This document shows positions 1,362 to 28,267 of a stretch of 64,000 bases of DNA, in pieces (position 1 is the stretch's first letter; the number at the start of each line of letters is the position of its first letter). This stretch comes from an uncultured Rivularia sp. (lineage in GTDB: Bacteria; Cyanobacteriota; Cyanobacteriia; Cyanobacteriales; Nostocaceae): positions 6,368,001 through 6,432,000 of the forward strand of contig OY762007.1 in NCBI GenBank assembly GCA_963665115.1, read 5' to 3'. Below the pieces are notes generated by a model. That model was not told the origin of the DNA. It saw nothing but the letters and a program-made list of their open reading frames with translations, and did not search any database. Made by a program: the position numbers and the translations under genes.

Positions 1362-1453
1362 TTATTGCAAATAATTTTCAGTGTGTTGTTTACGTAAATT
1401 CTACTATAAATTTTCGTGAGTGAAAGTAGTAGTTTTATGAAGTTTTCGTTAAG
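1362..1453 (-). promoter_or_regulatory. Conserved promoter cassette A (Fur-family-like box, TTACGTAA, -10 element, 11-bp direct repeat)
   Basis: + strand TTATTGCAAATAATTTTCA...TTACGTAAATTCTACTATAAA...TTTATGAAGTTTTCGTTAAG, homologous to cassettes at 5751, 13603, 26110 and 28168; about 190 bp upstream of the 1169 start. Confidence 0.7.
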
Positions 1454-1540
1454 CAGTAGCGGTTGTGCAAAATTTGCATTTGGTGGTTGAACTGTTAGAG
1501 TAACGCAAACCCGACCATTTAATTACCAATAATACATAAA

Positions 1541-1709
1541 TGTAGAGACGTAGCACTGCTACGTCTCCCCGGATTTTGCGATTTATATTAATAATTTGGT
1601 TAATCGTAGGTGAATGGTATAATCCGTTCGGTTTTGTGCGGTGGTTGTTGGAGACGGTTTCGTTTTGTGCGGTGATTGATATGAGACGTAGCAGTGCTAC
1701 GTCTCTACA
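1541..1709. repeat. REP doublet (REPIN-like): two inverted GTAG-type palindromes
   Basis: TGTAGAGACGTAGCACTGCTACGTCTC at 1541 and an inverted copy GAGACGTAGCAGTGCTACGTCTCTACA ending 1709; homologous to 6968-7107. Confidence 0.8.
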
Positions 1710-1717
1710 CCAGTTAT

Positions 1718-4700
1718 TTATCCAAACGCAAAATTATCTGCAATTAAGCTATCAGTAGCAATTCCTTGCAAAATTGCTAATTCAGAATTATTTGCAGCAA
1801 TTAAGGTGTTATCATCCTGTTGAGAAATACTCAAATCATCAAAGCCGATTCCTAAGCCAGCGATACCGAGGACATCTTCACCGCTGGTAAAATCGGTTAT
1901 AACATTAGGTGCTCCAGGAATTTCGGCTGTTGCAATCCAGAATTGGTCTGCACCTGCGCCACCAGTAATGATATTATCACCACCACTCATAGCGAAGAAT
2001 TTATCAGCACCATCTCCACCAACAAGGCGATCGCCATTCCCTAAAATCAAAGTATCGTCACCGCTACCTGCATAAATCCGGTTTCCACCTTCGCTACCGA
2101 TAGAAGCGTCAATCAAATCATCGGAACTACCAGCGAAAGTAAACCCATTACTACCTTCGACTTCGATAACATCTCCCTCAAGAGAACCAAACACAGGTGG
2201 TACGGGTTCTGGTTCTGGTGCGGAAGTTAATTTAAAGCTGATGTCGTATTCACCAATATTAATGCCAAAGTCGGGGAAGATACGACCGCTACCTGTACCC
2301 GCTTCCAAGGGGTCGTAGGTGCGATTACCTAATTGCGCGACACCCGCATAATAAGTTCCGGCTTCCTCAGCAGTAAACTCTAAATAAGCATCACGGTTAG
2401 CGTTGAAGATTTCATCTGGTGCTGGTGCGCCGGTAACTAGGTCTAATTCGTTACCTTCTGCATCAAATAGACGCAGTTCGGAATCCAACCTTTGTGTTTC
2501 TTCAATTCCTTCAATTTCGTAGGGTATTGAATCTACATCAACGCTGACTGTATCTCCAGCTTGTAATTCAAAGCTGTACATATCAACGTCTTCGGAAGCA
2601 TCGACTAAGTTACGAGTTGCGCGAGCGGAATCGATTTCACCGCTAACGGTTAAGGTGGGACTGTCTGCGCTTAAACCTGTGATAATTGCGTCAGTAATTG
2701 TATCATTACCTTCGCTAAGGTCGGGGCCTGATTCACCTGGTTCTTCTGGTTCTTCGGGTTCTTCTGGAAATGCTACAGAGTCTGGATTATCGGAAATGCT
2801 GTAGGTGACGGAAGCGTTATCCGAAGCGATGCTATAACCGGGACTTTCAATTAAGGAAAGCGTAAATTCTTCAATTCCTTCTAAAGCGTCTTCTGCATCA
2901 ATTTCCGGATTGGTGGTTTCGTCAAAAACATTTAAGGTAATACTAGCTCCGTCTTCAAAAGCTCGGAAGTATAAACCGGAGGAGGAAAAGTTAGTGGTGG
3001 GGAAAACTCCTCCACTCACTTCTGCTTCAAAAATATTAAACTCACCAACTGCTGCCCTTTCATCTGTATTAGCGTAAATTAATACGCCGTCTTCAGGAAT
3101 TTCACCATCAATATTGAAACTGAAGGTAACACCTGTTGCTTCGGATTCAATTAGGTTAGTTTCGCTGATATTAATTCCAACGGTGGGTTCGGAAGTCGGA
3201 GCGGGAACATCGGCTAAGGTATCGTATACGGTGACGGAAGTTGTTGCTGCACTTTCGTTAACGACGTAACCAGTTGATGATTCTAAAGCAAAGTTTAGTA
3301 CTTCTGGCCCATCAGTTTCCGCTTCTTCTAGGTCTTCAATATCGATACTAATTAAAGCATTCGGACCAGTTGCTAAGAAACGAATACCGCTAGGATTACC
3401 GCTATCATCGTATACCGCTCCGATAACTTCTCCACCTAGAGTAAAAGGCGATCGCCCTAATCCCCCAAAGTATTCAGTAAGGTCAAAGTCGCTGTTGATA
3501 ACAACTTCCACACCATCTTCAGGAATTTCTCCTTCTACCTTCAAGGCTAAAGATAAGAGAGAAGCACCTCTTTGTTCTCCGAGAAATTCAACTAAATTGG
3601 GAGCTAAAACGGTATCGCGTAATTCGCTGCGTTCTCCGTTAAAGGTACCATATACCGATTGCAGAGAAACTGTTGGCCCGCTGCCATCTCCGGGAGTAAT
3701 TTCTGTTGCTGAAGGAGTATTATCTGTATTCAGACTGAGATTAAGGGTGTATTCCCCACTGCTGCGTCCGGTACCGCTAGCGGGTTCTGTAGGTTCGTAT
3801 GGGTTATTTTCACCTGGATCGAAATTCTCAAATTCACCATTCGGGTAACTGCTAATTCCCGCATAATAAGTACCATCAGTTTCCGCTGTATACTCAATGT
3901 AGGAATCTCGGAAAGCCAAGAAAGTTTCACCTGGTGCCCCGTCATCATCGCTTATAGCTAGTTGATTTCCTTCTGCATCAAATAAACGCAGTGCTGTATC
4001 TAAATCGGAAGGGTTTTCCAAATTAGTTTGACTAGCATCTGTATCCAGACGAACGGTGTCTCCGGCTTTTAAATCAAAGGAGTAAAGGTCAACATCTTCG
4101 GTAAAATCAACATACAACCTTCCATCTTCAAGTTCGTAGCGGTTGCTGTTGTTATAGTCAATCTCTCCAGTGATGGAAACTTGAGAATTAGCTTGATTTA
4201 AGCCTGACGCTTGAGCTAGTTCGAGAGTGTCGTTAGGTTCGCTAACTTCTTCGGTAGCGGGAGGAATTTGTTCTACGGTATCCACTAAATTGAAAGTACC
4301 GCTGTTAGCTTCTGGATTTACTTGATAACCGTCACCAGATTGTAAAGTAAAGACAGCAGTTTCTAATCCTTCATCTGCACCGTCATTTGCAACAGGTAAA
4401 TTAATAGTTGCCGATTGTTCGGTAATTGTAAACTGCAATTGGGGAGGAGAACTTTCGAGAATTTCAATATCACCAGAAATTCCAGTGGTTTCAATTCCTG
4501 TAGCGTCAAATTCTTCTAAACCATCAGCAGTGACTCTAACAGTTATCCCTTCTTCAGGTGGTGGCGAACTGAGACTAAAATTATGAACCCCAACAGTTGT
4601 TTCTGCTTCAACTAAAGTTTGTGGTTCAATAGTATAGCTAACTTGAATTTGAGAATCGGGATTATCCGCAATAGTTACACTTACTTCACCAGCATCGTCA

Positions 4701-5567
4701 CTAACCGAATATGAAGGGTCCATTGACTACTTCAAAGGTAAATTCTTGAACTCCTTCAACAATTCCCTCTTCAATTTCCGGATTGGTGGTTTCATCAAAA
4801 GCAGGTACGGTAATTGATGCTCCATCTTCGAGAATTTTGAAGTAAAAACCACTAGCAGCAAAGTTGGGGAAAGGAGTTGTACTACCAGAAATTTCCGCGT
4901 TAAAAACGTCGAATTCCCCTAAAGCACCTCTGCTAGGGCTATTAACATAAACTAATATCCCATCGGAGGGAACATCACCATCAACATTAAAAGTAAACGT
5001 AGTGGTATTTCCTTCGCTTTCCACTAGTTGATTTTCGTTTACATTCAAGCTAACTTCAGGAAAACCACCTTCCGGAGCATCGATAGCTGGTAAATCATCT
5101 AAACTGTCATTGAAAACTACAGTTGAAGAACTATTATCAGCATCAACAGTGTAACCAGAACCAGCTTCTAAACTAAAAGTTGCTTGTTCAACACCGTCTG
5201 TTTCGGCTTCATCTTTGTTTTCCAAAGGTAAACTAAGCAAAGCATTCGGACTATTAACTAATAGACGAACACCCGTTGCTACTCCTTCGTCGTTATAAAC
5301 AGCTTCTATAACTTCCGCTCCAAAGGTTAGAGGAGTTCTACCTAAATTAGCGAAATAATCAGTTAAAGCGATATCGCTGTTAATTACAACTTCTACACCA
5401 CCTTCAGGAATATCACCTTCGGTTTGTAAGCTGAGAACTAAAATTGATGAACCTGGTTGCTCTCCGAGGGATTCTACTAAACTTTCAGTAAGAAGAGTAT
5501 CTCGTAGCTCGGTTCTTTCACCATTAAATGTACCAGTTAAAGTTTGCAGGGAAATGTTTGGTGACAT
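1718..5567 (-). CDS. Array paralog 2: secreted acidic protein with Calx-beta-like modules, two PPC/DVUA0089-like domains and an RTX-like C-terminal tail; +1 frameshift at G-run 4716-4718
   Basis: ORFs 4701..5567 and 1718..4723 join as ...EVVNGPSYSVSDDAGEV. Motifs EPNDT..A, DVDLYSF.L.AGD, D..LRLFDAEGN, GTYYAG; tail with [24 protein letters not shown] ending DNFAFG. Confidence 0.8.
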
Positions 5568-5603
5568 GATGTTTGTTTGTGATTTTTAATTGACGTGGTA
5601 AAT

Positions 5604-5632
5604 GTGGAGACGCGATATATCGCGTCTCTACA
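5604..5632. repeat. GTAG-type palindromic REP-like element
   Basis: GAGACGCGATATATCGCGTCTCTACA, a perfect palindrome with the same outer stem as the other copies. Confidence 0.75.
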
Positions 5633-5750
5633 AGATTGTGGTTATTCTCAGTCAAAAGAAGCGATTATGTCGGGTTAGTAATTTTTGACTTGTGAAAAGT
5701 ACATTGCCCTCATTTATCCAGATGCACTACTAATAGAATAAATTTTTATT

Positions 5751-5840
5751 TTGTTGAGAATATATTTCATTAAACTTCTTACGTAAATCATACTATACAT
5801 TTGAGATTGTCTAGTATTTTTTTATAAACTTTTATGTGCG
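5751..5840 (-). promoter_or_regulatory. Conserved promoter cassette B
   Basis: TTGTTGAGAATATATTTCA...TTACGTAAATCATACTATA, with the same spacing as cassette A, upstream of the 5567 start. Confidence 0.65.
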
Positions 5841-6074
5841 TACTGCTTTTTTAGAGTCGAATCATTAAAACAATTACACCTGTAATGGGGATTGGAGATG
5901 GGGAGAGGGGGGAAGAGAGCAGTGAGCAGAGAAGGCAGGGGAGAAAAGGCTAAGAAAAATGAAATTGCTTCCTCCGCTCCTAACTCATAACTCCTAACTA
6001 CTTCCTACTCCCTATTGCCGGAAATATGATTCAATATATCCCAGGTTTAATAAATAATTGCAGCAAAATCCTTT

Positions 6075-6938
6075 ATGCGTCGAGATTCGATTTTTTATAA
6101 GCTGTTTCAACAATATCCACCTTTACTGTTTGAATTGTTGACAAATCCACCAGAGAATGCTTCTGAATACACATTTGATTCCAAAGCCGTTAAAGAAACA
6201 AAATTTGAAATCGATGGGGTGTTCGTACCACCGGAAAATAAAAGTCCAGGAGTGGTTTACTTCGTAGAAGTACAATTTCAAAAGGATGAAAAATTGTATG
6301 AGCGATTATTTGCGGAATCTTATCTATATTTCTACCGAAACCGCGATGACTTTAGCGATTTACAGATGGTTATAATTTATCCGTCACGAAGCATCGAACA
6401 AAGTAAAATTCGTCCTTACCGGAATCTGCTCAACAGCGATCAGGTAAATCGGATATATTTGGATGAATTAGGGGATATTCGCGAATTACCTTTGGAAGTA
6501 GCGGTAATGCTGTTGACTACGGTTTCCGAGGAGCAAGCACCAGAAGAAGCTAGGTATTTATTACAAAGAACTCAACAGGAAAATCCTCAACCTTCTTCTC
6601 AAGCCATAATAGAACTAATTACGACGATAATAGCCTACAAGTTTGTACAATTTAGTCGAAGGGAGGTAGAAGAGATGTTAGGGATTACGTTTGAAGAAAC
6701 CCAATTTTATCGGGATATTAGAGAAGAAGCACTACAAGAAGGAGAACAAAGGGGACGAGAAAGAGAACGAAACCTTATTCTCCGTCTGCTAACTCGACGG
6801 GTGGGAGAATTATCCCCAGAAGTGCGAGAAAAAGTTGAAAATCTCTCCTTAGAACAATTAGAAAATCTTGGTGAAGCACTGCTTGATTTTAACAGCATGG
6901 GTGATTTACAAGTTTGGTTGGATGGGAATAAGGAATAA
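6075..6938 (+). CDS. Rpn-family recombination-promoting nuclease / putative transposase (DUF2887-type PD-(D/E)xK domain plus C-terminal DUF4351-type helical domain)
   Basis: N-terminus MRRDSIFYKLFQ, VKETKFEIDGVF, YFVEVQFQKD, RIYLDEL; C-terminus LILRLLTRRVGEL...LSLEQLENLGEALLDF, typical of this cyanobacterial family. Confidence 0.9.
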   Translation: MRRDSIFYKLFQQYPPLLFELLTNPPENASEYTFDSKAVKETKFEIDGVFVPPENKSPGVVYFVEVQFQKDEKLYERLFAESYLYFYRNRDDFSDLQMVIIYPSRSIEQSKIRPYRNLLNSDQVNRIYLDELGDIRELPLEVAVMLLTTVSEEQAPEEARYLLQRTQQENPQPSSQAIIELITTIIAYKFVQFSRREVEEMLGITFEETQFYRDIREEALQEGEQRGRERERNLILRLLTRRVGELSPEVREKVENLSLEQLENLGEALLDFNSMGDLQVWLDGNKE

Positions 6939-6967
6939 CGATTAATTTAGGTAATACACATAACTAA

Positions 6968-7107
6968 TGTAGAGACGTAGCAGTGCTACGTCTCCCCGGA
7001 TTTAGCGATTTATATCAACAATTTGGTGAATCGTCGTAGGTGAATAGAATAATCCCTTTGGTTTTGTCCGCTGATTGTTGGAGACGTAGCACTGCTACGT
7101 CTCTACA
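6968..7107. repeat. REP doublet (REPIN-like), homolog of 1541-1709
   Basis: Inverted GTAGAGACGTAGCA(G/C)TGCTACGTCTC pair with a similar spacer (CCCGGATTT.GCGATTTATAT...TCGTAGGTGAAT). Confidence 0.8.
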
Positions 7108-7115
7108 CCAGTTAT

Positions 7116-10100
7116 TTAACCAAACGCAAAGTTATCTACACTCAAACTATCCATACCAACACCCTGCAAAATCGCTAACTCAGAATTATTCGCAGCAATC
7201 AAGATATTATCATCTTGCTGAGTAATACTCAAATCATCAAAACCGATACCCAAACCAGCTATACCTAAAACATCTTCACCGCTGGTAAAGTCGGTTATGA
7301 CATTCGCTGCGTCGGGAATTTCAGCCGTAGCAATCCAGAATTGGTCGGCACCTTCTCCACCAGTAATGATATTATCACCACCGCTCATCACAAAAAACTT
7401 ATCTTCACCAACACCACCAACAATTCTATCTGAAGTTCCCATTATTACAGTATCGTCACCGCTACCGGAATAAATACGATTATTACCTTCGCTACCAATA
7501 GAAGCGTCAATTAAATCATCGGAATCACCAGCAAAGATTAGGCGATCGCTACCTTCAACTTCAACAACATCGACCTTAATTGTCCCGAATATGTTTTCAA
7601 AAGTAGATTCTATTGGTTCGCTTTTACCTGCTGTTAATTCGACATTGAGTTCGTATTCTCCCGAAAAAACGCCGATTTCTGGAAAAATCCAACCGCTACC
7701 GCTACGCTCGACATTTGGGTCATAGTTGCGGTTTCCTAATTGACTTATTCCTACGTAATAATTACCAGTTTCTTCAGCGGTAAATTCAAGGTAAGGATCT
7801 CTCCCGGCTGGTTCGTCTGGTGCTGCTGCGTTGTTTACTCGAACTATTTCGTTACCGTCAGCATCAAATAAACGCAGCTCGGAATCTAACCTTTGTTCTA
7901 CTTGTGGAAATCTTGCGGTTTCAAAGGGGATGGAATCAATATCAATTTTTACGGTATCTCCCGATTTTAATTCCAAGCTGTAAAAATCTACGTCTTCGGA
8001 AAAATCTCGATAATCTGCTCTTTCTACTCCGTCTTCTCTGGGGAAGAGATTTCCTTTTACTCTAGCGCTAGTGTTTTGCGGATTGAGATTTAAGTCAACT
8101 GCTTGTGATATGGTGTCATTTGGGCCGGTTTCTTCAGCAGGTGCGGGAGTTTGTTCGGGAATATCTACTATAGTGAATGTGGTTTGATTATTTTCTGCAT
8201 TGACGAAATAGTTATCGGAATTTTCAATTAGCGCAAAACTTGCTGTTTCTACTTTTTCTGCTTCACCGTCGGATAATACGGGTAATTCAACTGTAGCGGT
8301 GGTTTCTTTGATATTGAGCAAAAATTCCGTATCGGTAACTTCGGTAATTTCTCCCCCAATAACTTCAACTGTTTCTAAATCAAATTCTGACAAGTTGGTT
8401 GCGTTAACCGTTACTGTAACTCCGTCTGATGGTGGTGGTGCTGTGAGGTTAAATTTATGAATGCTCTTGGTATTTTCCGACTCAATTAAAATTTCGGGTT
8501 CCCCACTCAAGCTGACTTCAACTACAGAATCGGGATTATCTCCAACGATAAAGTTAATTGCTCCAGCATTTTCGTTGATAGTATATAGCGAAGTTTCTTG
8601 TAGAGCAAAATTATAGCTTTGCAATCCTTCTGATATTGGATTGGGGAAAACTGAAAAGTTAATTGATGCTTCTTGCTCGGTTATTTTGAAGTAGAAACCG
8701 CTGAATTCACCGTTGGGAAAGGGAAAAGCACCTCCAGATACTTCTGCATTCAATACATCAAATTCTGCAAGCGCTGGTTTGTCTGCTTTAAGATAAACTA
8801 GTACACCTTCTTCTGGAGGAGGTTCGCTTAAAGTAAATTTGAGCGTGGTTTCCGATGCTTCGGATTCATATAGTTCGCTGTTAGTAATCGAAATGCTGAC
8901 TTCTGGGATAACTTCGGGTATGGGAGCTTGTTCTGGATTATCGTAAAAAGTTGCGGTAATTTGATTTTTAGCTTCAGATACCCCGTAACCTTCTCCTGCT
9001 TCTAAGAAAAATGTCGCTTCTTCTGGCCCATCGGTTTCAGGTTCTACTAATTCTCCTCGCAATTGAGTTCTAGCATTCAAGGGGAAGAAAGTTTTGGGTT
9101 GAAAAACTCGTAACTGCACCCCCGTTTCTCTTCCGGTGTCATCCGTCACCACATCAATTAATTCCGCACCAGGGGAAAAGGGAGCAGAGATTAGCGATCG
9201 CACCGTAAAATAATCTCGTAAATAAGTATCGCTGTTTATCGTTACCAGAATACCCTCTTCCGGAATTTCACCTTCGGTTTCCAAAAGTAAAGTTAAGATG
9301 GAACCTTGAATTGGCAGCCCTTCGACTAAATTATTACTAATTAAGTTGTCTTCACCATCGTAAGTTGCGCCCAGGAAATCTAAAGAAACCGTTGGTTCTC
9401 CCGGTGCTGCGATATCAACAGTTTCCGGAGGAGTATTATTGCTTCTATCCAACTGTGGAGCAACTAAAAGCGGATTTTCTGGATTTAAAGTAATTTGTAA
9501 ATCGTATTCGCCAATTCCCCGGTAATCTAAACCACCGCGACTGTCTCCATCTCCAGTTTCAGGTACAAAAGGATTATAAGCTCTTTCCTTATACTGTTCC
9601 GGGTCGCCAAATAAATCTCCGCCAAATCGGTAGGGAGTTCCATTAGTAAAAACACTTAACCCCAAGTAATAGCTGCCGTCCGCAGGAGCTTGAAATTCTA
9701 AGTATGGGTCGGTAGAAGTTGCAAATAATTCCCCAGCACCCGAACCCAAATCTTTCGCAGCTAATTCATTCCCCGACTCATCGAACAACCGAAAAATTAC
9801 ATTTCCTTGAGTGCGATCGCGTTCCAAATCGGGAATAGCTGGATTACCTTTAACAACCGCATCAATGTCAAAAGCAACAATATCATCAGCTTTCAAATCA
9901 ACTTGATAAAAATCTACATCTTCGGTTCCATCAACATAAGTAAAGCTACCATCCGGATTTTGATAGCGATTGCCAATATCAAAATCTAAACTACCACTCA
10001 ACGTCACCTGGGGATTTTCCGAACTAATTCCCGAATCTACCGCAAGCGGAATAGTATCATTCGGTTCGCTGACATTAAACGGAATTTTCTCTACTGTATC

Positions 10101-10478: not shown

Positions 10479-10520
10479 GATATTTTTATTGATTATTGAG
10501 AGATTTAAATTCTCGTTAAA

Positions 10521-10629
10521 TTCTCGTTACAAGGCTCTGCCTTGTGACGCAGGTTTTAGAAGGCTCTGCCTTCTACTTGTAAGGCAGAGCCTTAAGAATA
10601 TGGGTTCCCAGCCAGAGACTGGGAACCAG
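10521..10629. repeat. Palindromic small dispersed repeat (AGGCTCTGCC/GGCAGAGCCT family)
   Basis: Nested inverted repeats AAGGCTCTGCCTT...AAGGCAGAGCCTT and GGTTCCCAG...CTGGGAACC; a related copy lies in frame in PKS1 at about 40933-41002. Confidence 0.65.
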
Positions 10630-10664
10630 TTATGAATCAATTCACGGAAAAACGATAAATTGGA

Positions 10665-13416: not shown

Positions 13417-13602
13417 AATTTATGTTGATTATAGAGTAAGTGTTTATACAATCTATTTTTTAGGCAATTGTGATTATGCCACCGTGGAATTAGTCATGCT
13501 ACAAGTATTATTTCGCGCTTATCATCAAACAAAAAGCTTCTAATTACCTAACAGAGCGTAGGTATAACGTCGGACAAAGTTTTTACTTTACTGTTGAATA
13601 AA

Positions 13603-13695
13603 TTATTGCGAAATAATCTCAAGCTTTTTGACTTACGTAAATTCTACTATAAACGATACTTTATAGAAGTAGCAATTTGTGAAGTTTTCGTGAAG
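13603..13695 (-). promoter_or_regulatory. Conserved promoter cassette C (paralogs 4-3)
   Basis: TTATTGCGAAATAATCTCAAG...TTACGTAAATTCTACTATAAA...TTTGTGAAGTTTTCGTGAAG. Confidence 0.7.
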
Positions 13696-14074: not shown

Positions 14075-14087
14075 AAAAAATTAATAA

Positions 14088-18106: not shown

Positions 18107-18126
18107 GTTATTTGTTTTTAGTGAAA

Positions 18127-18300
18127 TTAAATAGTTTGTTGGTCTTCAACGCCGTCCACAAAAATAATGCTTTGAAAAGTGCGATCGCCAATATTATAGT
18201 TTCTACCTTCAACATTAGTTAAAGCAAAATCCAAAAACTGAGCTTCTTCGTCAATTGCATCGGGAATAATTGGAATGATGTAAAAATTTGAAATTTTAGT
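18127..18300 (-). pseudogene. Remnant of one array module (no start codon)
   Basis: Minus strand reads ...IPIIPDAIDEEAQFLDFALTNVEGRNYNIGDRTFQSIIFVDGVEDQQTI*, resembling the second half of the repeated module (P...D...EE...F.F.....G..Y.....). Confidence 0.5.
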
Positions 18301-18308
18301 TCATAAGA

Positions 18309-18335
18309 TGTAGAGACGTAGCAGTGCTACGTCTC
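18309..18335. repeat. GTAG-type REP palindrome downstream of paralog 6
   Basis: TGTAGAGACGTAGCAGTGCTACGTCTC. Confidence 0.8.
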
Positions 18336-18376
18336 CAAATTGATGCGAAATAACGCCTAATTCAGGGAATGATTAT

Positions 18377-21300
18377 TTAAGCAAACGCAAAATTATCCGT
18401 AATCAAACTATCAGCACCAATTCCTTGCAATATCGCTAAATCTGAGCCATTCGCAGCAATCAAAGAGTTATCTTCCTGCTGGGTGATGCTCAAATCATCA
18501 AAGCCGATTCCTAAACCAGCAATACCAAGCACATCTTCACCGCTGGTAAAGTCAGTAATAATATTTGCTGCTTCCGGAGTTTCGGCTGTAGCAATCCAGA
18601 ATTGATCGGCACCGGCTCCACCAGTAATGATATTATCACCACCCGAAAGTGCAAAGAATTTATCGTCACCTTCACCACCAATCAGGCGATCGCCATTCCC
18701 CAAAATCAAAGTATCATCACCGCTACCAGCATAGATACGGTTTCCACCTTCACTACCAATAGAAGCGTCAATCAAATCATCGGAATCACCACCGAAAACA
18801 ATTTGACTGCTACCTTCTACTTCGATAATATCTCCTTCTAAGGAACCGAATATTGGTTCGGTAGTGGGTTTAGAGCCACCACTATCGGATGCTAATTCGA
18901 CGTTGAGTTCATATTCGCCGAAAAGAATGCCGATTTCGGCGAATATCCAACCGCTACCAACGCTTAGATTATTTTCTACCAAGGGGTCATAATCGGTATT
19001 TCCAAGCTGACTGACACCGACGTAGTAAGTACCCGCTTCCGAGGCTGTAAATTCAAGATAGGGGTCACGGCTAAATTCTTCGTTGGGTGCTGCACCGTTA
19101 TTGACGCTAGCTAATTCGTTACCCGAAGCATCGAATAAGCGCAGTTCCGAATCTAAACGTTGTTCTACTCCTTCAAATTTAGCTGACTCAAAGGGAATAG
19201 AATCAACATCAAGCTTAATCGTATCTCCTGCTTCCAAAGTAAAACTGTAGAAGTCAACATCTTCTGAAGCCTCTACGATTTCACCAACACTAGAATCTAC
19301 TCTTGCGGATTCACCTGGTTCGCGACTACTAAGAGCAGCGGTAAATTTTGCAGTGGGATTAAAGGGATTGATATTGAGATCGATCGCTTCAGAAATCGTA
19401 TCATTAGAATCAAATTCTTCAGTTGGAGCAGGAACTTGTTCTGGAATATCTACCACCGTAATTGTGGCTTCGGGTGCATCGGGGGTCGATTAGGTAATTT
19501 GTAGTTTCAACCAAAGAGAAAGTAGTTGTTTCTACTCCCTCATCTTCACCATCTGATATTGGTGGTAGCTCGACGATAGCAGTAGCATCGGTAATATTAA
19601 GGGAGAAACCCGTGTCTGTAACTTCTGTTATTTCTCCTCCCGTTACGGTAAATGCTTCGGTATCAAACTTCGATAAATCGTCAGCACTGACTGTTACGTC
19701 AACACCTGATTCTGTGGGAAATGCAGTCAGATTAAAGGTAAGCTCGCCTGCTGTATTATCTGACTCAACCGCAACAGTTTCGCTTCTTAAGCTAACTTCT
19801 AAAACAGAATCTGGATTATCAGCAATAGTGAAATTGACGAACGAAGCATTCTCATCAATCGTATACAGAGATCCTTCTTGAAGCGCAAGGTTAAAGCTTT
19901 GTAAACCTTCTTCAAAGGGGTCTTCAAAAGCAGATAAGCTAATAGATGCTTCTTGTTCAGTAATTTTGAAAAAGAAACCGTTAAATTCTCCATTAGGAGT
20001 TGGATAAACACCTCCGCTAACTTCAGCATTGAGAATATCAAATTGAGGTAGGATACCTACTGCATCACCCTTGACAAAAACCAGCACACCTTCAGAGGGC
20101 GGAGCTTCATTAAGGCTAAAGTTGAGCGTTGTTCGATCTCCTTCGGATTCAACTAGTTCGGTTTCGGTAATTGTTAGGCTGATTTCAGGAATAACGTTAG
20201 GTTCTGGAGCTTGCTCTTCACTGTCATAGAATGTGGGTGTGACTTGATTTTCGGTTTCAGATACCCCGTAGCCTTCACCGCCTTCTAAGAAGAACGTTAC
20301 CTCTTCTGGACCATCAGTTTCAGGTTCTAATAGCTGACCCCAATAAGGAGTTCTTGCATTCAATCCGACAAAAGTAACCGGCTCAAATATTCTAAGTTGA
20401 AAACCCGTTTCTCGTCCAGTGTTATCGGTTAGAACATCTACTAATTCTGCTCCAGGCGTAAAAGGAGGAAGAATTAGAGAGCGTACTGAAAAGTAGTCTC
20501 TTAGATAGCTGTCGCTATTTACATTAACTAAAATACCTTCTTCAGGAATTTCTCCTTCAGTTTCTAATACCAGGTTTAAAAGTGAACCCTCTAGGTCAAG
20601 TCCTTCGATTAAATTGTTTGAAAGTACGGTGTCTAAACCAAGCTCCCCAGAAATAACGCGGGGATCTGAAAACTGAGCATAAGTAGCACTGTTAAAGTTC
20701 AAAGAAACCGTTGGCTCACCATCTTGAGCTAAATCGATTGTTTGGGGAAGTGTGTTATTACTACGATTTTGCTGTTCCACTAAAAACGCTCGCTCTTCTG
20801 GATTAAGAGCAATTGTTAGTTCATACTCACCAATATTAAGAGAATCTTCGGAAGCATTAAACCCATCTCCACTAGCTGGAATGAAGGGGTTGTATGTCAG
20901 ACCACCCCAAGTATCGGGCGCACCAAATCTTTGAGGCGCGCCGTTGGAAAAAGAGCTAAGACCTAGATAGTAAGTTCCATCTTCTGGTGCTTCAAATTCA
21001 AGGTATGAATCTCCACTCGATCTGAAAATTTCACCTATCCCTGGACTGAGACCTCTTCCAGTAAGTTCGTTACCGTCTGCGTCAAATATGCGTTGTATGC
21101 CTACAATGCTATTAACCGTATCGAATTCAACGTTTGGAAAAGCTGCTCCATCTGTAGCACGAGAATCGATGTCAGAAGAAATAACGTCTCCTGCTTTAAG
21201 GTCAAATCTGTAGAGGTTTACGTTTTCTACCGCATCAACATAAGTAAAGCTGCCATCTTCATTTTGGTAGCGATTGCCAATATCAAAATCAAAGGTTTCA

Positions 21301-22319
21301 ACAATCGTAACTACTGAATTATCAGCACTGAGTCCAATATCGCTAGCTAAAGGAATAATATCGTTAGGCTCGCTGATATTATCAGGAACTTCTTCGGCAG
21401 TATCGGTAATAGTGAACTCACCACTACTAAAATCATCATTCACCTCATACCCATCACCCGCTTCCAAACTAAAGCTAGCCGTTTCTAACCCCTCAGCTTC
21501 CCCATCAGCAGCAACAGGAAGATTAATTAAAGTCGTAAAATCCGTGAGTCGAATATCAAAACCATCCTCTCGGACGTTGACAATTTCCCCACCATCACTA
21601 ACTTCAATCGCATCTAAACGGAAGCTACTCAAGTTGGGTGCATCAACTCCAACAACTATTCCACCTTCAGGTATTGTTGCTCCAGTGACATTAAAAACAT
21701 GAGCAGAAACCGTTCCGTCTTCCTCTACCAAATAATCCGGTCCCGTATTTAAACTAACTAACGGTAAACCAGTTTCTGGAGTTGGTTCCGGTGTCGGATT
21801 CGGTTCCCGTGTCTGCTCGGTAAGCTGGCTTTCAAGGTCAGCAAATAATACACTACTTGTTGCTGCATTACTATCAATAGTGTAATCGCTGAGATTGCCC
21901 ACATCCCCCAAATCTGCTGCATCCACCTGCTCGCTCGTCTTCAACTGAAACACCGCTTCTACCAAACCATCAAAAGTTTCTGGTAAAAACGTATCGGGTT
22001 CAGAATTATCAAACACATTAATCGTAAAGCTCGCATTCGTAGCTCCTGGATCAATAGTGAGGAAAAAGCCAGAATTATCAAAATTAGTTCCAAGCAACGA
22101 GGGGTTGATATTTTCGACGATTGGATTAACCCCAAACCCCGGTAAATTCAAACGGTTGACAATTTGTTCTACATCGCTATCTACATAAACTTTCAAACCA
22201 CCTTCGGGAGCTGGTTCATCTAAGGAGAAGTTTACAGTTAATGCATTTCCCTTCTCTTCAACGAGCGCATTCTGTTCACCCGAGTAGTTCGTAGTTGTAG
22301 AAAGGCTAACTTGTACCAT
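18377..22319 (-). CDS. Array paralog 6: secreted acidic protein, modules, two PPC-like domains, RTX-like tail; +1 frameshift at G-run 19481-19485
   Basis: ORFs 19419..22319 and 18377..19456 join as ...NYLIDPDAPEATITVVDIPEQVPAP, matching TTFTIVDIPEQTPAP in paralog 3. Confidence 0.8.
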
Positions 22320-22435
22320 TATTAATTTTCCTGAAGTTATTGTTATTTTTTCTCGTTACATGAAATGGTGCGCTCACAGCGCGAAAAAGACATATTTTTT
22401 TATAATCCGAATTATTCGTCGCGCCATAACAGAAC

Positions 22436-22488
22436 GGCAGTTTTGCGGCTTTGTGCATCCACACCGCAAACTGCCTCCCCTACGAGTG
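22436..22488 (-). repeat. Stem-loop directly after the paralog 7 stop (GTAG-led palindrome; possible mRNA stabiliser or terminator)
   Basis: GGCAGTTTTGCGG...CCGCAAACTGCC inverted repeat, preceded on the minus strand by CGTAGGGG. Confidence 0.5.
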
Positions 22489-22490
22489 AT

Positions 22491-25400
22491 TTAAGCGAAA
22501 GCAAAATTATCAGCAACCAAACTATCCGCGCCAATACCTTGCAAAATTGCTAATTCAGAATTATTTGCAGCAATCAAAGTATTATCATCTTGTTGAGAAA
22601 TACTCAAATCATCAAAACCGATACCCAAACCAGCAATACCTAAAACATCTTCACCACTAGCAAAGTCAGTAATAATATTTGCTGCTTCCGGAGTTTCGGC
22701 TGTAGCAATCCAGAATTGATCGGCACCGGCTCCACCAGTAATGATATTATCACCACCCGAAAGTGCAAAGAATTTATCACCACCTTCACCACCAATCAGG
22801 CGATCGCCATTCCCCAAAATCAAAGTATCATCACCGCTACCTGCGTAAATCCGGTTGCTTCCCGTGCTACCAATAGAAGCATCAATCAAATCGCTTTCGT
22901 CACCACCGAAAACAATTTGACTGCTGCCTAACACTTCGATAACGTCTGCTTCGATTGTTCCGAAGGTAGGGGAAGGTGTTGCTGCAACTTGACTATCATC
23001 AATGCTGAAAGCAACTTGTTGAGCGTTGGAATCAACTTCGTAAATTTCTCCATCTATTAAGCTGAAACTAAATTCTTCTAAACCTTCGTTTGCACCGTCG
23101 TCAAAAGTGGTTAAGGTAAGACTCGCATTACTGTCGGTAATCGTCGCTAAGAAACTACTTCCTCCCGAATCTCCCACTGTGGGAAAACCATCGATACCAG
23201 TTGTTTGAATTGCAAAATTTCCATCTTCGTCAAAGATGCTAAATTCACCTAGAATACCACGGGTTTCGCTATCAACGAGAACGGTTAAACCATCTTCAGG
23301 AATTTCTCCATCAACATTAAAGTTGACTGTAAATTGTTCTCCTTCACTTAGTTCGGTTTCGCTGAAAGAAAGTCCAACTGTGGGACCAATTCCAGCACCA
23401 CCATTACCGTCGATTAAGGTAACTCCATCGCTGTTAGTATCGGAAACAGCGTAATTTGAATCTATCGAACCATCATTTTCTATGACAGTAAAGCCAAAAT
23501 CTCGATCTTCTTCTTGAATAACATCGTTGAGGATGGGGAAAACAATAGAACCCTCATTTTCTGAAATAATTAATTCAGTAGTACTGGTTTCGGGGTCGAA
23601 AAATTCACCGATTGCAATATTGTTAAAGGTAACATCAATCTCACCATCTACTTGATCTGTTAAATCTAAATCCCCACTAATAAGAAATGAAAGTCCGTCT
23701 TCGGGAATTTCCCCATCTACGCTAAAGTTAGCAAAAACTGTTGCTTGTTCGTCTTCTTCGGAAACTAAATCTGGTTCAATGCTGAAGCTGACTACTGGTG
23801 CTTCTCCTGTAGGTGGTGTTGGTGTAGTACCGCTTGCATCGCTAAAATTGAGAGTAACTGCACCGTTTTCGGAATCAACTTGATAAGCTTCCCCATCAAT
23901 CACCTCAAAGGTAAATGATTCTAAAGCATCATCCTCATCTATACCTTCATCAATTACGGGTACGGTAATAGTAGCGGTGGGTTCGGTGATAGTAACAAAG
24001 AAACCGCTATCTCCGTCGGCAGGTCTGGGAAACTCGCTAAGTCCTGTAGTCTCAATTTGAGCCACATCAAATTCAGTTAGCGACCTTTGTTGAGTTGCTG
24101 CACCATCGATATCGTTAACTAAAACGGTAAGTCCTTCTGCTGGAATCTCCCCATCAACGTTAAGGGTTAAAGTAATCGAATCTCCTTCAACTACGTCGCT
24201 GTTATCTACAGTTAATCCAACGGTAGGCCCCGCTGGTTGTGTTTCATCGACTACGTTTAAAGTTATGCTACCAGCGTCGGGAGCAACTTCGTATTCTTCT
24301 CCATTCACAATCGTAAAGGGAAGTTCTAAAGGTTCTTCGGCAAGAATATCGTCAAAAACTGAGGTAGTAATTGATGCTTCCGGTTCGGCAATAGTCACGA
24401 AGAAACTGCTACCACCAGCATCCCCAACTTCGGGTAATCCTGCGATTCCATCTAGTTGCAAAGTACTTAAATCGGATAAGTCAAATTGTCCTAAAGCACC
24501 GGGAACCGAACTTTGAACTAAAACCTGTACTCCATCTTCGGGAATTTCCCCATCTGCACTAAAGTTAATGGTTATTTCATCACCTTCAGTTAAATCGGTT
24601 GCACTAGCAGAAATTCCCACATTCGGGCCAATTCCGGGACCACCGTTATCATCAGTTATGGTAAATAGGGTAGAGTTTTGAGATGAATCAACTGTATATC
24701 TTTCTCCTTCCACAAGTTGGAAATCAAAAGGTTGAGTACCTTCTTCGATAATGTCGTTAATGAAGTAAAGCTTGAATGAAGCTTCAGGTTCAGACAATAA
24801 GATATTTATTCTACCAGTGTCATCAGAATCAACGATTTCAGAATTAATGAATTCTGCTTCTGGTTCGGCTGCAAACTGATTGGTAAAGTCAAAAGGAATA
24901 TCAGGATTGCCACCCGAAGTATCCAAGTTTACTATAATTCCTTCTTCGGGAAAATCTCCGGTAACTGTCCACTTCCACTCAACTAAATTATTTTCAGCTT
25001 CTTCCGATAGGGTTGCGGGGGTTGTTTCAAAGCTGACTACTGGTAGTTCTCCCGTGGGTGGTTCTGTTGGAAGTTCGGATTCCGTTGCTGCTTCAACTGT
25101 AATCTCAACGGTTGCAGGTTCGGAAAATATTTCACCGTCGTTAGTTAAATAAGTAAAGGTATCTGTTCCGGAAAATCCCTCGTTAGGAGTATAGCTAAAA
25201 GAACCATCCTCATTTAAAGACAGTTGCCCACTGTCGGGAGTATCTAAAACAGAAACAATTAATTGATTTCCCTCAGCATCAGAATCATTAGCTAATATCC
25301 CCGCATCTACATCTACACTTAATTCCTCTCCCTCAGCAGTTGTATAACTATCGCTTTGAGCAACTGGAGGTGTATTATCTGATGGTTCTGGTTCTACAGG

Positions 25401-25817
25401 AACTTCTGGTTCTTCTGGTGGTGGTTCGATTGTCGTACTTTCCGCATCTTGAAGCGTCAAACTAATAGAATTTGCACTTTCATTAACTGTATAACCTTCA
25501 CCCGGTTGGACGGTAAACGTTAAACCTTCAATTGCATCGGCAACATCATCGTCGAAAATCGGTAAACTTAAAGTTCCCGTTTGCTCGGTGAGTCGAATAC
25601 TAAAACCGGAAGTGTCATCATTCACCCCCACCAAACGTAAATTTTCAAACTCGGTTGCGAACACATCTAATTGAGCCAAAGCATTTTCGGTTTCGCTATC
25701 CACAGTGACAACCAAACCACCTTCGGGTATTGGTTCATCTGAAGTCAGCGTAATCGTTAATACAGTTCCTTCTTCTTCAACTAGAACTGTGGGATTCGCA
25801 CTTATTGAAACTGCCAT
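22491..25817 (-). CDS. Array paralog 7: secreted acidic protein with several Calx-beta-like modules, one cadherin-like/tandem-95 (Big_9-type) domain and RTX-like tail (1108 aa)
   Basis: NTPPVAQSDSYTTAEGEELSV...GILANDSDAEG...DGSFSYTPNEGFSGTDTFTY; ends DNFAFA. Confidence 0.85.
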   Translation of the reverse strand: MAVSISANPTVLVEEEGTVLTITLTSDEPIPEGGLVVTVDSETENALAQLDVFATEFENLRLVGVNDDTSGFSIRLTEQTGTLSLPIFDDDVADAIEGLTFTVQPGEGYTVNESANSISLTLQDAESTTIEPPPEEPEVPVEPEPSDNTPPVAQSDSYTTAEGEELSVDVDAGILANDSDAEGNQLIVSVLDTPDSGQLSLNEDGSFSYTPNEGFSGTDTFTYLTNDGEIFSEPATVEITVEAATESELPTEPPTGELPVVSFETTPATLSEEAENNLVEWKWTVTGDFPEEGIIVNLDTSGGNPDIPFDFTNQFAAEPEAEFINSEIVDSDDTGRINILLSEPEASFKLYFINDIIEEGTQPFDFQLVEGERYTVDSSQNSTLFTITDDNGGPGIGPNVGISASATDLTEGDEITINFSADGEIPEDGVQVLVQSSVPGALGQFDLSDLSTLQLDGIAGLPEVGDAGGSSFFVTIAEPEASITTSVFDDILAEEPLELPFTIVNGEEYEVAPDAGSITLNVVDETQPAGPTVGLTVDNSDVVEGDSITLTLNVDGEIPAEGLTVLVNDIDGAATQQRSLTEFDVAQIETTGLSEFPRPADGDSGFFVTITEPTATITVPVIDEGIDEDDALESFTFEVIDGEAYQVDSENGAVTLNFSDASGTTPTPPTGEAPVVSFSIEPDLVSEEDEQATVFANFSVDGEIPEDGLSFLISGDLDLTDQVDGEIDVTFNNIAIGEFFDPETSTTELIISENEGSIVFPILNDVIQEEDRDFGFTVIENDGSIDSNYAVSDTNSDGVTLIDGNGGAGIGPTVGLSFSETELSEGEQFTVNFNVDGEIPEDGLTVLVDSETRGILGEFSIFDEDGNFAIQTTGIDGFPTVGDSGGSSFLATITDSNASLTLTTFDDGANEGLEEFSFSLIDGEIYEVDSNAQQVAFSIDDSQVAATPSPTFGTIEADVIEVLGSSQIVFGGDESDLIDASIGSTGSNRIYAGSGDDTLILGNGDRLIGGEGGDKFFALSGGDNIITGGAGADQFWIATAETPEAANIITDFASGEDVLGIAGLGIGFDDLSISQQDDNTLIAANNSELAILQGIGADSLVADNFAFA

Positions 25818-25851
25818 AATTTCTTTCCTATCGATTGGTATCTTTTTACAC

Positions 25852-26015
25852 GGCGTTGCTGTTAGCGTAGCTCGACGTTAGCCATATAAAAGTATGAATA
25901 GCCCCCTGACCCCCCAATTATGGGGGAGAAATATATTTTAAATTCCCCCAATACCCCCAAAATTGAGGGGGTCACGCGGGCAGGGGATTTAGGGGGCTGC
26001 GCTAACAGCAACGCC
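25852..26015. mobile_element. MITE (GGCGTTGCTG terminal inverted repeats) with an 8-bp target duplication
   Basis: GGCGTTGCTGTTAGCG...CGCTAACAGCAACGCC flanked on both sides by TTTTACAC; lies in the 5' leader of paralog 7. Confidence 0.85.
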
Positions 26016-26109
26016 TTTTACACGTTAATTTTGTTTTGCAGCGGAAATCGGAACTCGAATTAACGCACCTTCAGAGCCGGAAGAACTTTACTGATTAATC
26101 TTGAACTAA

Positions 26110-26201
26110 TTATTGCGAATTAATCTCAAGATTATCACTTACGTAAATTCTATGATAAATTCTGCTTCACGAAAGTAACTTTTCATGAAGATTTCGTAAA
26201 G
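26110..26201 (-). promoter_or_regulatory. Conserved promoter cassette D (paralogs 7-6-5)
   Basis: TTATTGCGAATTAATCTCAAG...TTACGTAAATTCTATGATAAA...TTCATGAAGATTTCGTAAAG. Confidence 0.7.
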
Positions 26202-26240
26202 TCAACTGATAAAGTAAGCAATTTGCAAATTTATTTTTTC

Positions 26241-26286
26241 TTAAAAAAAGGTGCATTGAGCCTTATGTAAAGCAACAATGCACCCT
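26241..26286 (-). terminator. Rho-independent terminator candidate after paralog 8
   Basis: GGTGCATTG...CAATGCACC stem followed on the minus strand by a T7 run. Confidence 0.6.
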
Positions 26287-26317
26287 GGGTTTGAATGTGG
26301 ACTAAAAAAAGCGGGCT

Positions 26318-26362
26318 TGTAGTAAGGGCTTAAGCCCTTTGAGGACTAAAGTCCTTACTACG
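26318..26362. repeat. GTAG-bounded double palindrome
   Basis: GTAGTAAGGGCTTAAGCCCTT...AGGACTAAAGTCCTTACTAC. Confidence 0.6.
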
Positions 26363-26374
26363 AACTTTGATTAA

Positions 26375-27731
26375 TTAACCGAAAGCAAAGTTATCTCCGC
26401 TTAAACTATCGGCTGCGATATCTGTCAATATCGCTAAATCTGTACCGCTAGCAGCAATCAACGCATTATCTCCCTGCTGAGTGATGCTGACATCCTCGAA
26501 GCCAATACCTAATCCAGCAATACCAAGGACATCTTCGCCACTGGCAAAGTCTTTTATCGTATTGATCCCGTCGGGTAGTTCTGCGGTTGCAATCCAGAAT
26601 TGGTCTGCACCTGCACCACCATGTATGAGGTTGTCCCCACCGCTCATGGCAAAGAACTTGTCGTCACCCGCACCACCGGAGTAATGGTCATCTTCTCCAA
26701 GTATGAAAGTATCGTCACCGCTTCCACCATAGATCCAGTTTCCACCTTCGCTACCAATAGAAGCATCAATCAAGTCATCTGAACCACCACCAAAGACTAG
26801 CTGTGCGCTACCTTCGACTTCAATAACGTCCATTTCCGTGGTTCCGAATTCTGTTGTGAATTCGGTATCAGTTTCACCTTCTCCCGGTTCGGGTAATTCC
26901 GGTTCTGGCTCAGGTTCTGGTTCGGGTTCTGGTTCGGGTTCTGGTTCCGGCTCCGGCTCAGGTTCTGGCTCAGGTTCTGGTTCCGGCTCGGGTTCGGGTT
27001 CTGGCTCAGGTTCGGGTTCTGGTTCTGGTTCTGGCTCAGGTTCGGGTTCTGGTTCTGGCTCAGGTTCTGGTTCTGGCTCAGGTTCGGGTTCTGGTTCTGG
27101 CTCAGGTTCGGGTTCTGGCTCAGGTTCGGGTTCTGGCTCAGGTTCGGGTTCTGGCTCAGGTTCGGGTTCTGGTTCGGGTTCGGGTTCTGGCTCAGGTTCG
27201 GGTTCTGGTTCTGGTTCTGGCTCAGGTTCGGGTTCGGGTTCTGGTTCTGGCTCAGGTTCGGGTTCTGGTTCTGGCTCAGGTTCGGGTTCTGGCTCAGGTT
27301 CTGGTTCTGGCTCAGGTTCTGGTTCTGGCTCAGGTTCGGGTTCTGGTTCTGCACCATCCGCGTCTTGGAGTGATAAAGTCACAGAACCAGCACTTCCATC
27401 AACTTCATATCCTTCACCAGGTACAACATTAAAAGTTAAATCTTGTGCATCATCATCTTGGTCGTCAAAAATCGGTACGGTTATAGTTGCTGGCGATGCG
27501 TTAATTAGAAAATCAAAACCACTGGTATCATCGTTAACGGTTGTAAACCGCCCATTTACAAATTGGGCAGCAAATACGTCTAATTGACCCCAGAGCATTT
27601 TCAGTGGGACTGTCAATAGTAACAGTTAAACCACCTTCCGGTATTGGTTCGCTTGAACTCAGTGTAAGTACTAGCGCAGTCCCTTCTTCTTCCACAAGAA
27701 CTGTGGGATTTGCGCTGATGCTAATTGCCAT
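26375..27731 (-). CDS. Array paralog 8: one Calx-beta-like module, (Glu-Pro)~75 rod, RTX-like tail; +1 frameshift at C-run 27588-27591
   Basis: ORFs 27534..27731 and 26375..27616 join as ...[17 protein letters not shown], identical to paralog 4 in this segment; ends DNFAFG. Confidence 0.85.
26899..27350 (-). repeat. Hexamer coding microsatellite GA(A/G)CCN encoding about 75 EP dipeptides
   Basis: About 450 bp of mixed GAACCA/GAACCC/GAGCCA/GAACCT units. Confidence 0.95.
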
Positions 27732-28167
27732 AATTTCAGTGTTAAAACTACATAAACGACGTTGAACCGAATGTATATTTTTAGCTAGCTAAAGGTTCAC
27801 AGATGGTAAATCCGGTAATCTAAAAGTCCGTCTACAAGGACTAATTACGCCCCAGCACGCCTTCTTAAAGCTTGCTGAAACACTCGAACGCACGCAGCAA
27901 AACTCAGTTTATTGATTCCCATGAAGGCATATGGATAGCCAACATCACTTGCTTAAATTTACAAATGCCTTATATCAAAGGGATATAAATGAGTTTGGGT
28001 TGCGTTTACGTCAATTCCGTGGTAAATGATTGGAAAGAGAGTATTAAACTTGACTATTCGGAATACATCCATAGTTAAATCTAACTTCATTTCCATTTAC
28101 ATCTTCCTAAAGACAGACTCGTTCTCGACTAAGTTAAAAACCTATCTTCTTTACTCGATAAGTATTT

Positions 28168-28267
28168 TTATTGAGAATAACTCTCAAAATATTTACAAGC
28201 AAACACAGTAACATTGTAGTTTTAAATTTTGTAATGCAAGTAGAATCTTCATGAAGTTTGTATAAAG
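28168..28267 (-). promoter_or_regulatory. Promoter cassette E (divergent copy) upstream of paralog 8
   Basis: TTATTGAGAATAACTCTCAA (near-palindromic 7-1-7 box) and AAGTAG...TTCATGAAGTTTGTATAAAG; the TTACGTAA element is missing. Confidence 0.6.

What the first reader, a model, noticed from the sequence alone, without database searches (positions are those of the whole stretch)
1362..28267. One ~90-bp promoter cassette copied in front of five array transcription units, with a Fur-family-like box
Seen at 1362, 5751, 13603, 26110 and (divergent) 28168. In gene orientation: an 11-bp-period direct repeat (CTTCACGAAAA-CTTCACAAA; CTTAACGAAAA-CTTCATAAA; CTTTACGAAAT-CTTCATGAA), then TATAGTAGAAT (-10-like), the palindrome TTACGTAA, and about 10 bp later TGA(G/A)A(T/A)TA(T/A)TT(C/T)GCAATAA or TTGAGAGTTATTCTCAATAA. 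The surrounding intergenic DNA is otherwise unrelated, so this conservation implies selection. Established: TGAnAAT-n-ATTnTCA 7-1-7 boxes are bound by Fur-family regulators, and ~11-bp direct repeats near -35 are typical of OmpR/PhoB-family regulators. Inference: dual control, with metal-dependent repression plus a two-component input. The cassettes define units 8, 7-6-5, 4-3, 2 and 1.
Basis: partly seen in the sequence, partly recalled or inferred. Interest (0 to 1): 0.75.

Follow-up and report, generated by a model that had tools for sequence, protein, structure and literature searches.

The report
Iron-box promoter with unassigned activator repeat
A short promoter is repeated in front of a family of large acidic, probably secreted proteins beside a likely iron-scavenging (siderophore) gene cluster in a cyanobacterium; it likely switches on only when the iron repressor Fur lets go and a second, still unidentified activator binds.

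Summary
The cassette is real. All five copies lie on the minus strand, and two more precede paralogues elsewhere in the genome. TTACGTAA is in 4 of 5 copies; it appears to mark the start site rather than an operator. The geometry is fixed: an 11-bp-period repeat, a TANNNT hexamer 48-50 nt after its start (22 of 22 genus copies), then a FurA-type box. A matrix built from these boxes picks out this genome's iron genes (6 of 11 independently chosen promoters in the top 5%) but not its Zur-like box. Repeat plus hexamer plus box recur in 8 of 21 boxed homologue promoters outside the genus, in 7 genomes; some others carry an AraC gene and a 21-bp repeat instead. The repeat scores poorly at this genome's Pho-, ManR-, CopR- and RpaA-like sites and against RpaB's HLR1, so its regulator is unknown. 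Best reading: a Fur-repressed, activator-dependent promoter like Synechocystis isiA, spread by old gene duplications and kept by selection. No expression or binding data. The scan's index held no earlier report of it.

The parts
1433..1453 (-). direct repeat (11-bp period), copy 1
   Evidence: score 28.2 (training site)
1398..1403 (-). predicted -10 hexamer, copy 1 (TTACGTAA follows at 1390-1397; inferred start site near 1391)
1364..1382 (-). FurA-type box, copy 1; precedes the gene starting at 1169
5820..5840 (-). degenerate direct repeat, copy 2
5787..5792 (-). predicted -10 hexamer, copy 2 (TTACGTAA at 5779-5786)
5753..5771 (-). FurA-type box, copy 2; precedes the gene starting at 5567
13675..13695 (-). 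direct repeat, copy 3
13641..13646 (-). predicted -10 hexamer, copy 3 (TTACGTAA at 13633-13640)
13605..13623 (-). FurA-type box, copy 3; precedes the gene starting at 13416
26181..26201 (-). direct repeat, copy 4
26147..26152 (-). predicted -10 hexamer, copy 4 (TTACGTAA at 26139-26146)
26112..26130 (-). FurA-type box, copy 4; precedes the gene starting at 25817
28247..28267 (-). direct repeat, copy 5 (the copy just after the MFS gene, the position conserved in other families)
28213..28218 (-). predicted -10 hexamer, copy 5; no TTACGTAA
28170..28188 (-). FurA-type box, copy 5; precedes the gene starting at 27731
1..27731 (-). array of eight paralogous genes for large acidic modular proteins (a repeated ~125-aa domain, PPC and Ig/cadherin domains, shared C-terminal tail with a weak RTX calcium-binding hit); continues left of the window
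   Evidence: 18-21% Asp+Glu in the three proteins measured
28898..33086 (-). MFS transporter (28898-30214) and AMIN-domain TonB-dependent receptor (30426-33086) upstream of the array
33981..63999 (+). fatty acyl-AMP ligase-like / PKS / NRPS block, divergent from the receptor; its promoter region carries a FurA-type box
   Evidence: rank 36 of 5454

Best explanation
The cassette is a conserved promoter module, predicted to be repressed by the iron sensor FurA and to need an unidentified, probably OmpR-type activator bound at the upstream direct repeat. Shown: the three elements keep a fixed spacing, sit only before paralogues of one acidic-protein family in this genome, and recur in other species and families. 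Inferred: the hexamer is the -10 element; transcription starts at an A near the end of TTACGTAA; the repeat is centred near -51, where activators bind; FurA binds from about +10 (+19 in copy 28168) and blocks RNA polymerase when iron is plentiful. The array would then be expressed under iron starvation together with the neighbouring siderophore-type cluster, and only when the second signal is present. The copies likely arose by duplication of gene plus promoter before these species split, and were kept by purifying selection.
For: Geometry: TANNNT lies 48-50 nt after the repeat start in 22 of 22 genus copies; the box lies at 69-72 nt in 20 and 78-79 nt in 2 (these are the training copies). Out of sample: two untrained copies in this genome and six in G041, one with a degenerate repeat. 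Outside the genus, 8 of 21 boxed gaps have repeat score at least 6 with TANNNT at 48-51 nt; chance for the repeat alone is 0.005 per gap. Box type: among 5454 upstream regions the box matrix ranks the crtH/upp gap 3rd-4th, a FecC-like permease 5th, tonB/exbB 13th-14th, a TonB receptor 35th and the cluster's first synthase 36th; the Zur-like box at znuA scores 1.9. In Synechocystis the crtH gap holds the IsaR1 Fur box and several Fur boxes start at +4 to +7 (PMC8634477 Table S7). RpaB sites centred about 50 nt upstream activate, and isiA needs both RpaB and Fur release (PMC6525291 passages). Receptor-MFS-promoter-acidic gene order is kept in other families. For 7 of 7 copies the most similar cassette lies in another genome, one by only one point.
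Against: No start site, expression or binding data; the only RNA run gave scattered contigs. Five of 11 independently chosen iron promoters were missed by the box matrix, including the window's own TonB receptor. De novo motif search on 11 iron promoters did not beat shuffles (137.9 vs 128-137). 13 of 21 boxed non-genus gaps lack a scoring repeat. The 70 other intergenic repeat hits in this genome show no excess of -10 hexamers at the same spacing (13 of 70, against 4-14 in other windows). No OmpR or AraC gene lies next to the array here. The simple sigma-70 scan of copy 3 picked a different, overlapping hexamer.
Confidence: 0.68

Rival explanations
1. The repeat is a variant site of a known cyanobacterial OmpR-type regulator, most plausibly RpaA (clock output) or RpaB, so the array would be gated by time of day or light as well as iron.
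For: The top RpaA-matrix matches listed for Anabaena show an 11-bp period with similar half-sites by eye (PMC10805033 supplement 2, part 1 of 233). The repeat spans distant families, as a universal regulator's site would. RpaB plus Fur is proven at isiA.
Against: Those RpaA matches have T-rich spacers, whereas the cassette's are mostly A-rich. The RpaA-like element before this genome's rpaB-like gene scores at most 6.0; 500 nt before two kaiB-like genes score at most 2.9, but the kaiA promoter was not covered. all2655 is absent from the RpaA list, which however needs a mapped start site. The 22 repeats differ from HLR1 at 4-7 of 16 positions and have period 11, not 10.
Confidence: 0.2
2. Only the -10 element and the Fur box matter; the repeat is an A/T-rich upstream (UP-like) element or a remnant of the ancestral promoter, read by RNA polymerase without any activator.
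For: All 7 copies in this genome precede paralogues, so descent alone gives some similarity. The repeat is weak at 5751 and in many non-genus promoters. No -10 excess behind other repeat hits.
Against: Conservation begins sharply at the first repeat base and drops in the spacer. The C and the invariant A of both half-sites are kept in 20-22 of 22 copies. Spacing is kept across families. Other homologues have an AraC gene and a 21-bp repeat in the same place, as if one activator site replaced another.
Confidence: 0.1
3. The cassette is a small mobile or recently homogenised repeat, or a structured RNA leader.
For: It has sharp ends, and in G008 and G002 it also precedes an unrelated 235-aa gene inside the array.
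Against: Seven copies only, all before one family; each copy is closest to a copy in another species; folding is no better than shuffles in 4 of 5 copies, with z -1.78 at best; no Rfam match.
Confidence: 0.02

Closest known systems
Synechocystis PCC 6803 isiA promoter (RpaB activation plus Fur repression; PMC6525291, passages read)
   Same: OmpR-type direct repeat in the activating position about 50 nt upstream, combined with Fur boxes; predicted AND logic.
   Different: Repeat has period 11 and differs from HLR1 at 4-7 of 16 positions; one box lies just downstream of the start; targets are acidic surface proteins.
Cyanobacterial Fur/FurA boxes (PMC8634477 passages and Table S7; PMC4005646 passages)
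   Same: A/T-rich 19-bp inverted repeat of the same shape by eye, placed just after the start site; FurA boxes are reported in the Anabaena siderophore NRPS/PKS cluster.
   Different: No binding test here; a matrix from the published sites was not computed.
IutR/PchR AraC activators acting with FurA on iron-uptake genes (PMC11221513, passages read)
   Same: Activator plus Fur on iron-acquisition genes; homologues of the array in other families have their own AraC gene and a 21-bp repeat before the box.
   Different: This lineage has an 11-bp repeat and no adjacent AraC gene.
Cyanochelin-type clusters with AMIN-domain TonB receptor and MFS exporter (bioRxiv 10.64898/2026.07.30.741596, passages read)
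   Same: AMIN receptor and MFS gene on the strand opposite a PKS-NRPS cluster.
   Different: The product of this cluster was not determined; the passages seen do not mention promoters or the acidic proteins.
3262-aa Nostocaceae Ig-like/PPC protein P0137 (BAB74354.1; its cluster includes Nostoc sp. PCC 7120 entries)
   Same: Homologue of the array proteins (31% identity over 70% of the query). I recall it as All2655, which is reported in the Anabaena exoproteome.
   Different: The name All2655 comes from memory, not from a call; the passages seen give no function or promoter for it.

Membership tests
FurA (iron) box | A/T-rich 19-bp 7-1-7 inverted repeat | tested here: met
   Position counts over 22 copies; by-eye agreement with published boxes.
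FurA (iron) box | same motif at the genome's other iron-uptake promoters | tested here: met
   7 of 12 in the top 5% length-matched; 6 of 11 after dropping the porin, which I had chosen from an earlier hit list; 5 missed.
FurA (iron) box | position overlapping or just after the start site; FurA gene present | tested here: inconclusive
   Box at +10 to +19 on an inferred start site; four Fur-family genes present, FurA label recalled.
FurA (iron) box | metal-dependent FurA binding and iron-starvation induction | not testable with these tools
   No usable RNA reads.
Zur box | match to the box at znuA | tested here: not met
   The Zur-like box before znuA (label recalled) scores 1.9; cassette boxes score 14-25 as training sites.
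OmpR/PhoB-type operator | tandem half-sites at 10-11 bp period in an activating position | tested here: met
   Period 11, centre near -51 on the inferred start.
OmpR/PhoB-type operator | cognate regulator identified or bound | tested here: inconclusive
   19 OmpR-type DNA-binding domain matches in the genome, none beside the array.
Pho box (SphR) | same motif before pstS genes | tested here: not met
   Best score 1.8 directly before the three pstS genes and 5.3 in neighbouring gaps.
ManR box | same motif at the mntC-like promoter | tested here: not met
   Two ManR-like repeats seen there (label recalled) score -0.6 at best.
CopR/RppA-type box | same motif beside rppA-like regulators | tested here: not met
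   Scores at most 4.2 beside one and 9.5 beside the other, against 20-30 for clear cassette repeats.
HLR1 (RpaB) | 8-nt repeats with 2-nt spacer (period 10) | tested here: not met
   4-7 mismatches of 16 in all 22 copies; definition.
RpaA site | match to the RpaA motif and presence at clock targets | tested here: inconclusive
   Same period and similar half-sites by eye; low scores before rpaB-like and kaiB-like genes.

The most novel reading that the evidence does not exclude
The repeat is the operator of an undescribed, widely conserved cyanobacterial response regulator. It would co-control exopolysaccharide and envelope genes (conserved Fur-less sites before a hexapeptide acetyltransferase in 5 genomes and a small membrane protein in 4) and, jointly with FurA, a family of giant acidic surface proteins tied to lipopeptide siderophore clusters, for example adhesins for mining iron from mineral surfaces.
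Probability: 0.25. Interest if true: 0.65.

Novelty: new variant of a known kind. Interest (0 to 1): 0.38.

Why it matters
The logic (activator plus Fur) is known, so this is not a new kind of system. Its value is as a ready-made test. It gives a precise, cross-family footprint for an activator site that fits none of the cyanobacterial boxes tested, and it ties an uncharacterised family of large acidic proteins to iron starvation and siderophore-type clusters. The same site occurs in other Nostocaceae genera, so a DNA pull-down could name the regulator and help wake silent siderophore clusters.

Tried and rejected
De novo Gibbs search on 11 iron promoters: not above shuffles, uninformative. 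A matrix from published Fur sites was not computed, so agreement with them is by eye only. In one search two of five training repeats were registered one unit off; corrected. The strict pattern found 6 of 27 genus genomes but undercounts, since G041 had no hit yet has six copies. Genome-contig scan gave only 3 loci. TTACGTAA as an operator: rejected. RNA structure and Rfam: nothing; IsaR1 itself was not detected in the crtH/upp gap. The repeat plus core-like site next to the ManR-like gene (C1:3440087) has the wrong spacing and no box. No Nramp gene to test. The metatranscriptome run X1 held 0.05 of the words and gave only contigs: no evidence. Not-in-print rests on ten searches of an open-access library: cyanochelin/gene cluster/iron; all2655; Fur/Synechocystis motif; cce_3030/cce_4675/cce_3031; AraC/IutR (36); ManR (52); OmpR/exopolysaccharide; RpaA motif; cyanobacteri + iron + Fur box + direct repeat + siderophore + activator, 0 papers. 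The original RpaA ChIP paper was not held; subscription papers and bioRxiv supplements were not seen and could name this motif.
Full report
Observation. The coordinates are the low ends of a conserved box on the minus strand. Upstream of each box lie an 11-bp-period direct repeat with half-site CTTYAY and a TANNNT hexamer. TTACGTAA follows the hexamer in four copies and is absent at 28168. The repeat at 5751 is degenerate. Read contigs from public runs cover all five cassettes without a differing letter. A three-part matrix found two untrained copies at C1:6115256 and C1:6316042 (55.3 and 45.3 bits; next site 27.9). Identity among the seven copies is high in repeat and box (0.70, 0.71), lower in the spacer (0.37) and at background in the flanks (0.28, 0.32).

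Context. The cassettes head units in an array of eight paralogous genes for large, very acidic proteins with PPC and Ig/cadherin domains and a shared C-terminal tail; the array continues left of the window. Secretion is inferred from the tail's weak RTX hit and from exoproteome reports of All2655, which I recall as a homologue. The array lies between NRPS/PKS blocks, directly after an AMIN-domain TonB receptor and an MFS gene that diverge from a fatty acyl-AMP ligase-like/PKS/NRPS cluster, a layout like that described for cyanochelin transport (bioRxiv 10.64898/2026.07.30.741596, passages). Both extra copies also precede paralogues that diverge from NRPS/PKS-linked genes.

The box. A symmetric matrix from 22 genus boxes ranked 5454 upstream regions. 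Apart from the array, top ranks include the crtH/upp gap (3-4; genes named), a FecC-like permease (5; label by eye), a porin (12), tonB/exbB (13-14), a TonB receptor (35) and the cluster's first synthase (36). Of 12 iron promoters, 7 fell in the top 5% for their length. The porin had come from an earlier hit list; without it the count is 6 of 11 (about 6e-6, worked by hand). Five were missed. The Zur-like box at znuA scores 1.9. In Synechocystis the crtH gap carries the IsaR1 Fur box and several boxes begin at +4 to +7 (PMC8634477, passages and part 26 of the supplement). FurA boxes are reported in the Anabaena siderophore cluster (PMC4005646, passages). The box is therefore most likely FurA type; binding is untested.

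Geometry. TANNNT starts 48-50 nt after the repeat in 22 of 22 genus copies. Taking it as -10 puts the start site at an A near the end of TTACGTAA, the repeat at about -61 to -41, and the box from +10 to +12 (+19 for 28168). RpaB sites centred about 50 nt upstream activate, and isiA requires RpaB as well as release from Fur (PMC6525291, passages). TTACGTAA is not palindromic in 7 of 19 copies and is lost outside the genus, so it is read as start-site sequence.

Conservation. A strict pattern hit 6 of 27 genus genomes, reversed control 0; G041 adds six copies. For 7 of 7 own copies the closest cassette lies in another genome, one by a single point, so the duplications are old and not homogenised; the tree on 101 columns has only 5 of 25 branches well supported. 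The protein family was found in 9 of 400 other genomes of the class and 17 of 250 of the family. Of 94 upstream gaps examined (some before internal fragments), 21 outside the genus had a box scoring at least 7; 8 of these, in 7 genomes (G078, G173, G218, G313, G543, G648, G261), have a repeat scoring at least 6 and TANNNT at 48-51 nt. Chance for the repeat alone is 0.005 per gap; the genomes are partly kin. G227 has a repeat of 12.5 before a box seen by eye that fell below the cut-off. Four other promoters show a 21-bp-period repeat instead (13-16 of 16 matches), three of them directly behind an AraC gene. Receptor, MFS, promoter, acidic gene keep their order in G078, G173 and G313.

Who binds the repeat. 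It scores at most 5.3 around pstS genes, -0.6 at ManR-like boxes, 4.2 and 9.5 beside two rppA-like regulators, and differs from HLR1 at 4-7 of 16 positions; the Pho, ManR, CopR and Zur labels are recalled. RpaA matches resemble it by eye (PMC10805033, passages and supplements 2 part 1 and 3), but RpaA-like and kaiB-proximal sites here score at most 6.0 and 2.9. Genome-wide there are 76 intergenic hits at 13 bits or more (6 are training copies) against 23-51 for 8 permuted matrices and 36-47 for other periods. Fur-less sites are conserved before a hexapeptide-repeat acetyltransferase (5 genomes) and a 144-149-aa membrane protein (4 genomes). The only non-array intergenic repeat-plus-box pair is at C1:4934202. 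The 70 non-array hits show no -10 excess at the cassette spacing, so a wider regulon is suggested, not shown.

Against. There are no expression data. In a furA turn-down RNA-seq, all2655 fell 2.6-fold from 1.8 RPKM, while known iron transporters also fell (PMC4788461, passages and supplement hits); the link of that gene to this family is recalled, although a Nostoc PCC 7120 homologue is shown. PMC4390870 lists all2655 among genes lower in a sigC mutant (passages). PMC11221513 (IutR) and PMC13079394 (Hrr1, an 11-nt repeat of different sequence) were read as passages.

Verdict. A real, selected promoter module of a known logic, with a probable FurA box and an unassigned activator-type repeat: a new variant of a known kind, interest 0.38. 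Look-ups in the scan's earlier notes returned nothing on this module.

Noticed in passing
window 710, 4716, 11829, 19481, 27588, 34017: The apparent frameshifts in array genes and the first synthase are single extra bases. Read contigs lack the base at 710, 4716 and 11829 (3 of 3 covering runs) and at 19481 (X2, X3, X4), so these are probably assembly errors; at 27588 and 34017 two runs lack it but X4 agrees with the window.
   Followed up: partly
window 26800-27420: A long Pro-Glu (PE)n repeat of about 150 residues in array gene 8, and a Gly/Glu-rich repeat at 12762-13017 in gene 4.
   Followed up: no
window 11824-13416: Array gene 4 contains a histidine-phosphatase domain (E 1e-4); homologues elsewhere carry serine hydrolase, amidase or spondin labels, suggesting a scaffold with exchangeable enzyme cargo.
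   Followed up: no
L146, L147, L148 (G313, G218): Several acidic-protein genes each have their own upstream AraC gene, a near-perfect 21-bp-period repeat and a Fur-like box: candidate IutR/PchR-type operators.
   Followed up: partly
cassette core around the -10 hexamer: The core holds two further half-site-like words at 12-bp spacing with the same C/T variation as the upstream repeat (counts); possibly a second, promoter-overlapping site. Genus-limited and untested.
   Followed up: no
L033:5524-6231 (G008) and L150:1339-2046 (G002): The full cassette precedes an unrelated 235-aa gene with no Pfam or NCBIfam match; this genome has two distant homologues elsewhere.
   Followed up: partly
G000:C1:6543194 and 7029160: Fur-less copies of the repeat conserved across the genus before a hexapeptide-repeat acetyltransferase pair and a small membrane protein; TACGTA also lies about 80 nt after the former.
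   Followed up: partly
window ~1468, ~13925, ~28595 (minus strand): A 13-bp TGCA-N5-TGCA palindrome recurs upstream of some cassettes and in related loci; not studied.
   Followed up: no
window 6075-6938: A DUF2887/DUF4351 (Rpn-like) gene is inserted on the opposite strand inside the array, flanked by short palindromic repeats.
   Followed up: no
G000:C1:2365458-2365553: Two ManR-like tandem repeats (label recalled) in the 95-bp gap of a divergent metal ABC transporter.
   Followed up: no
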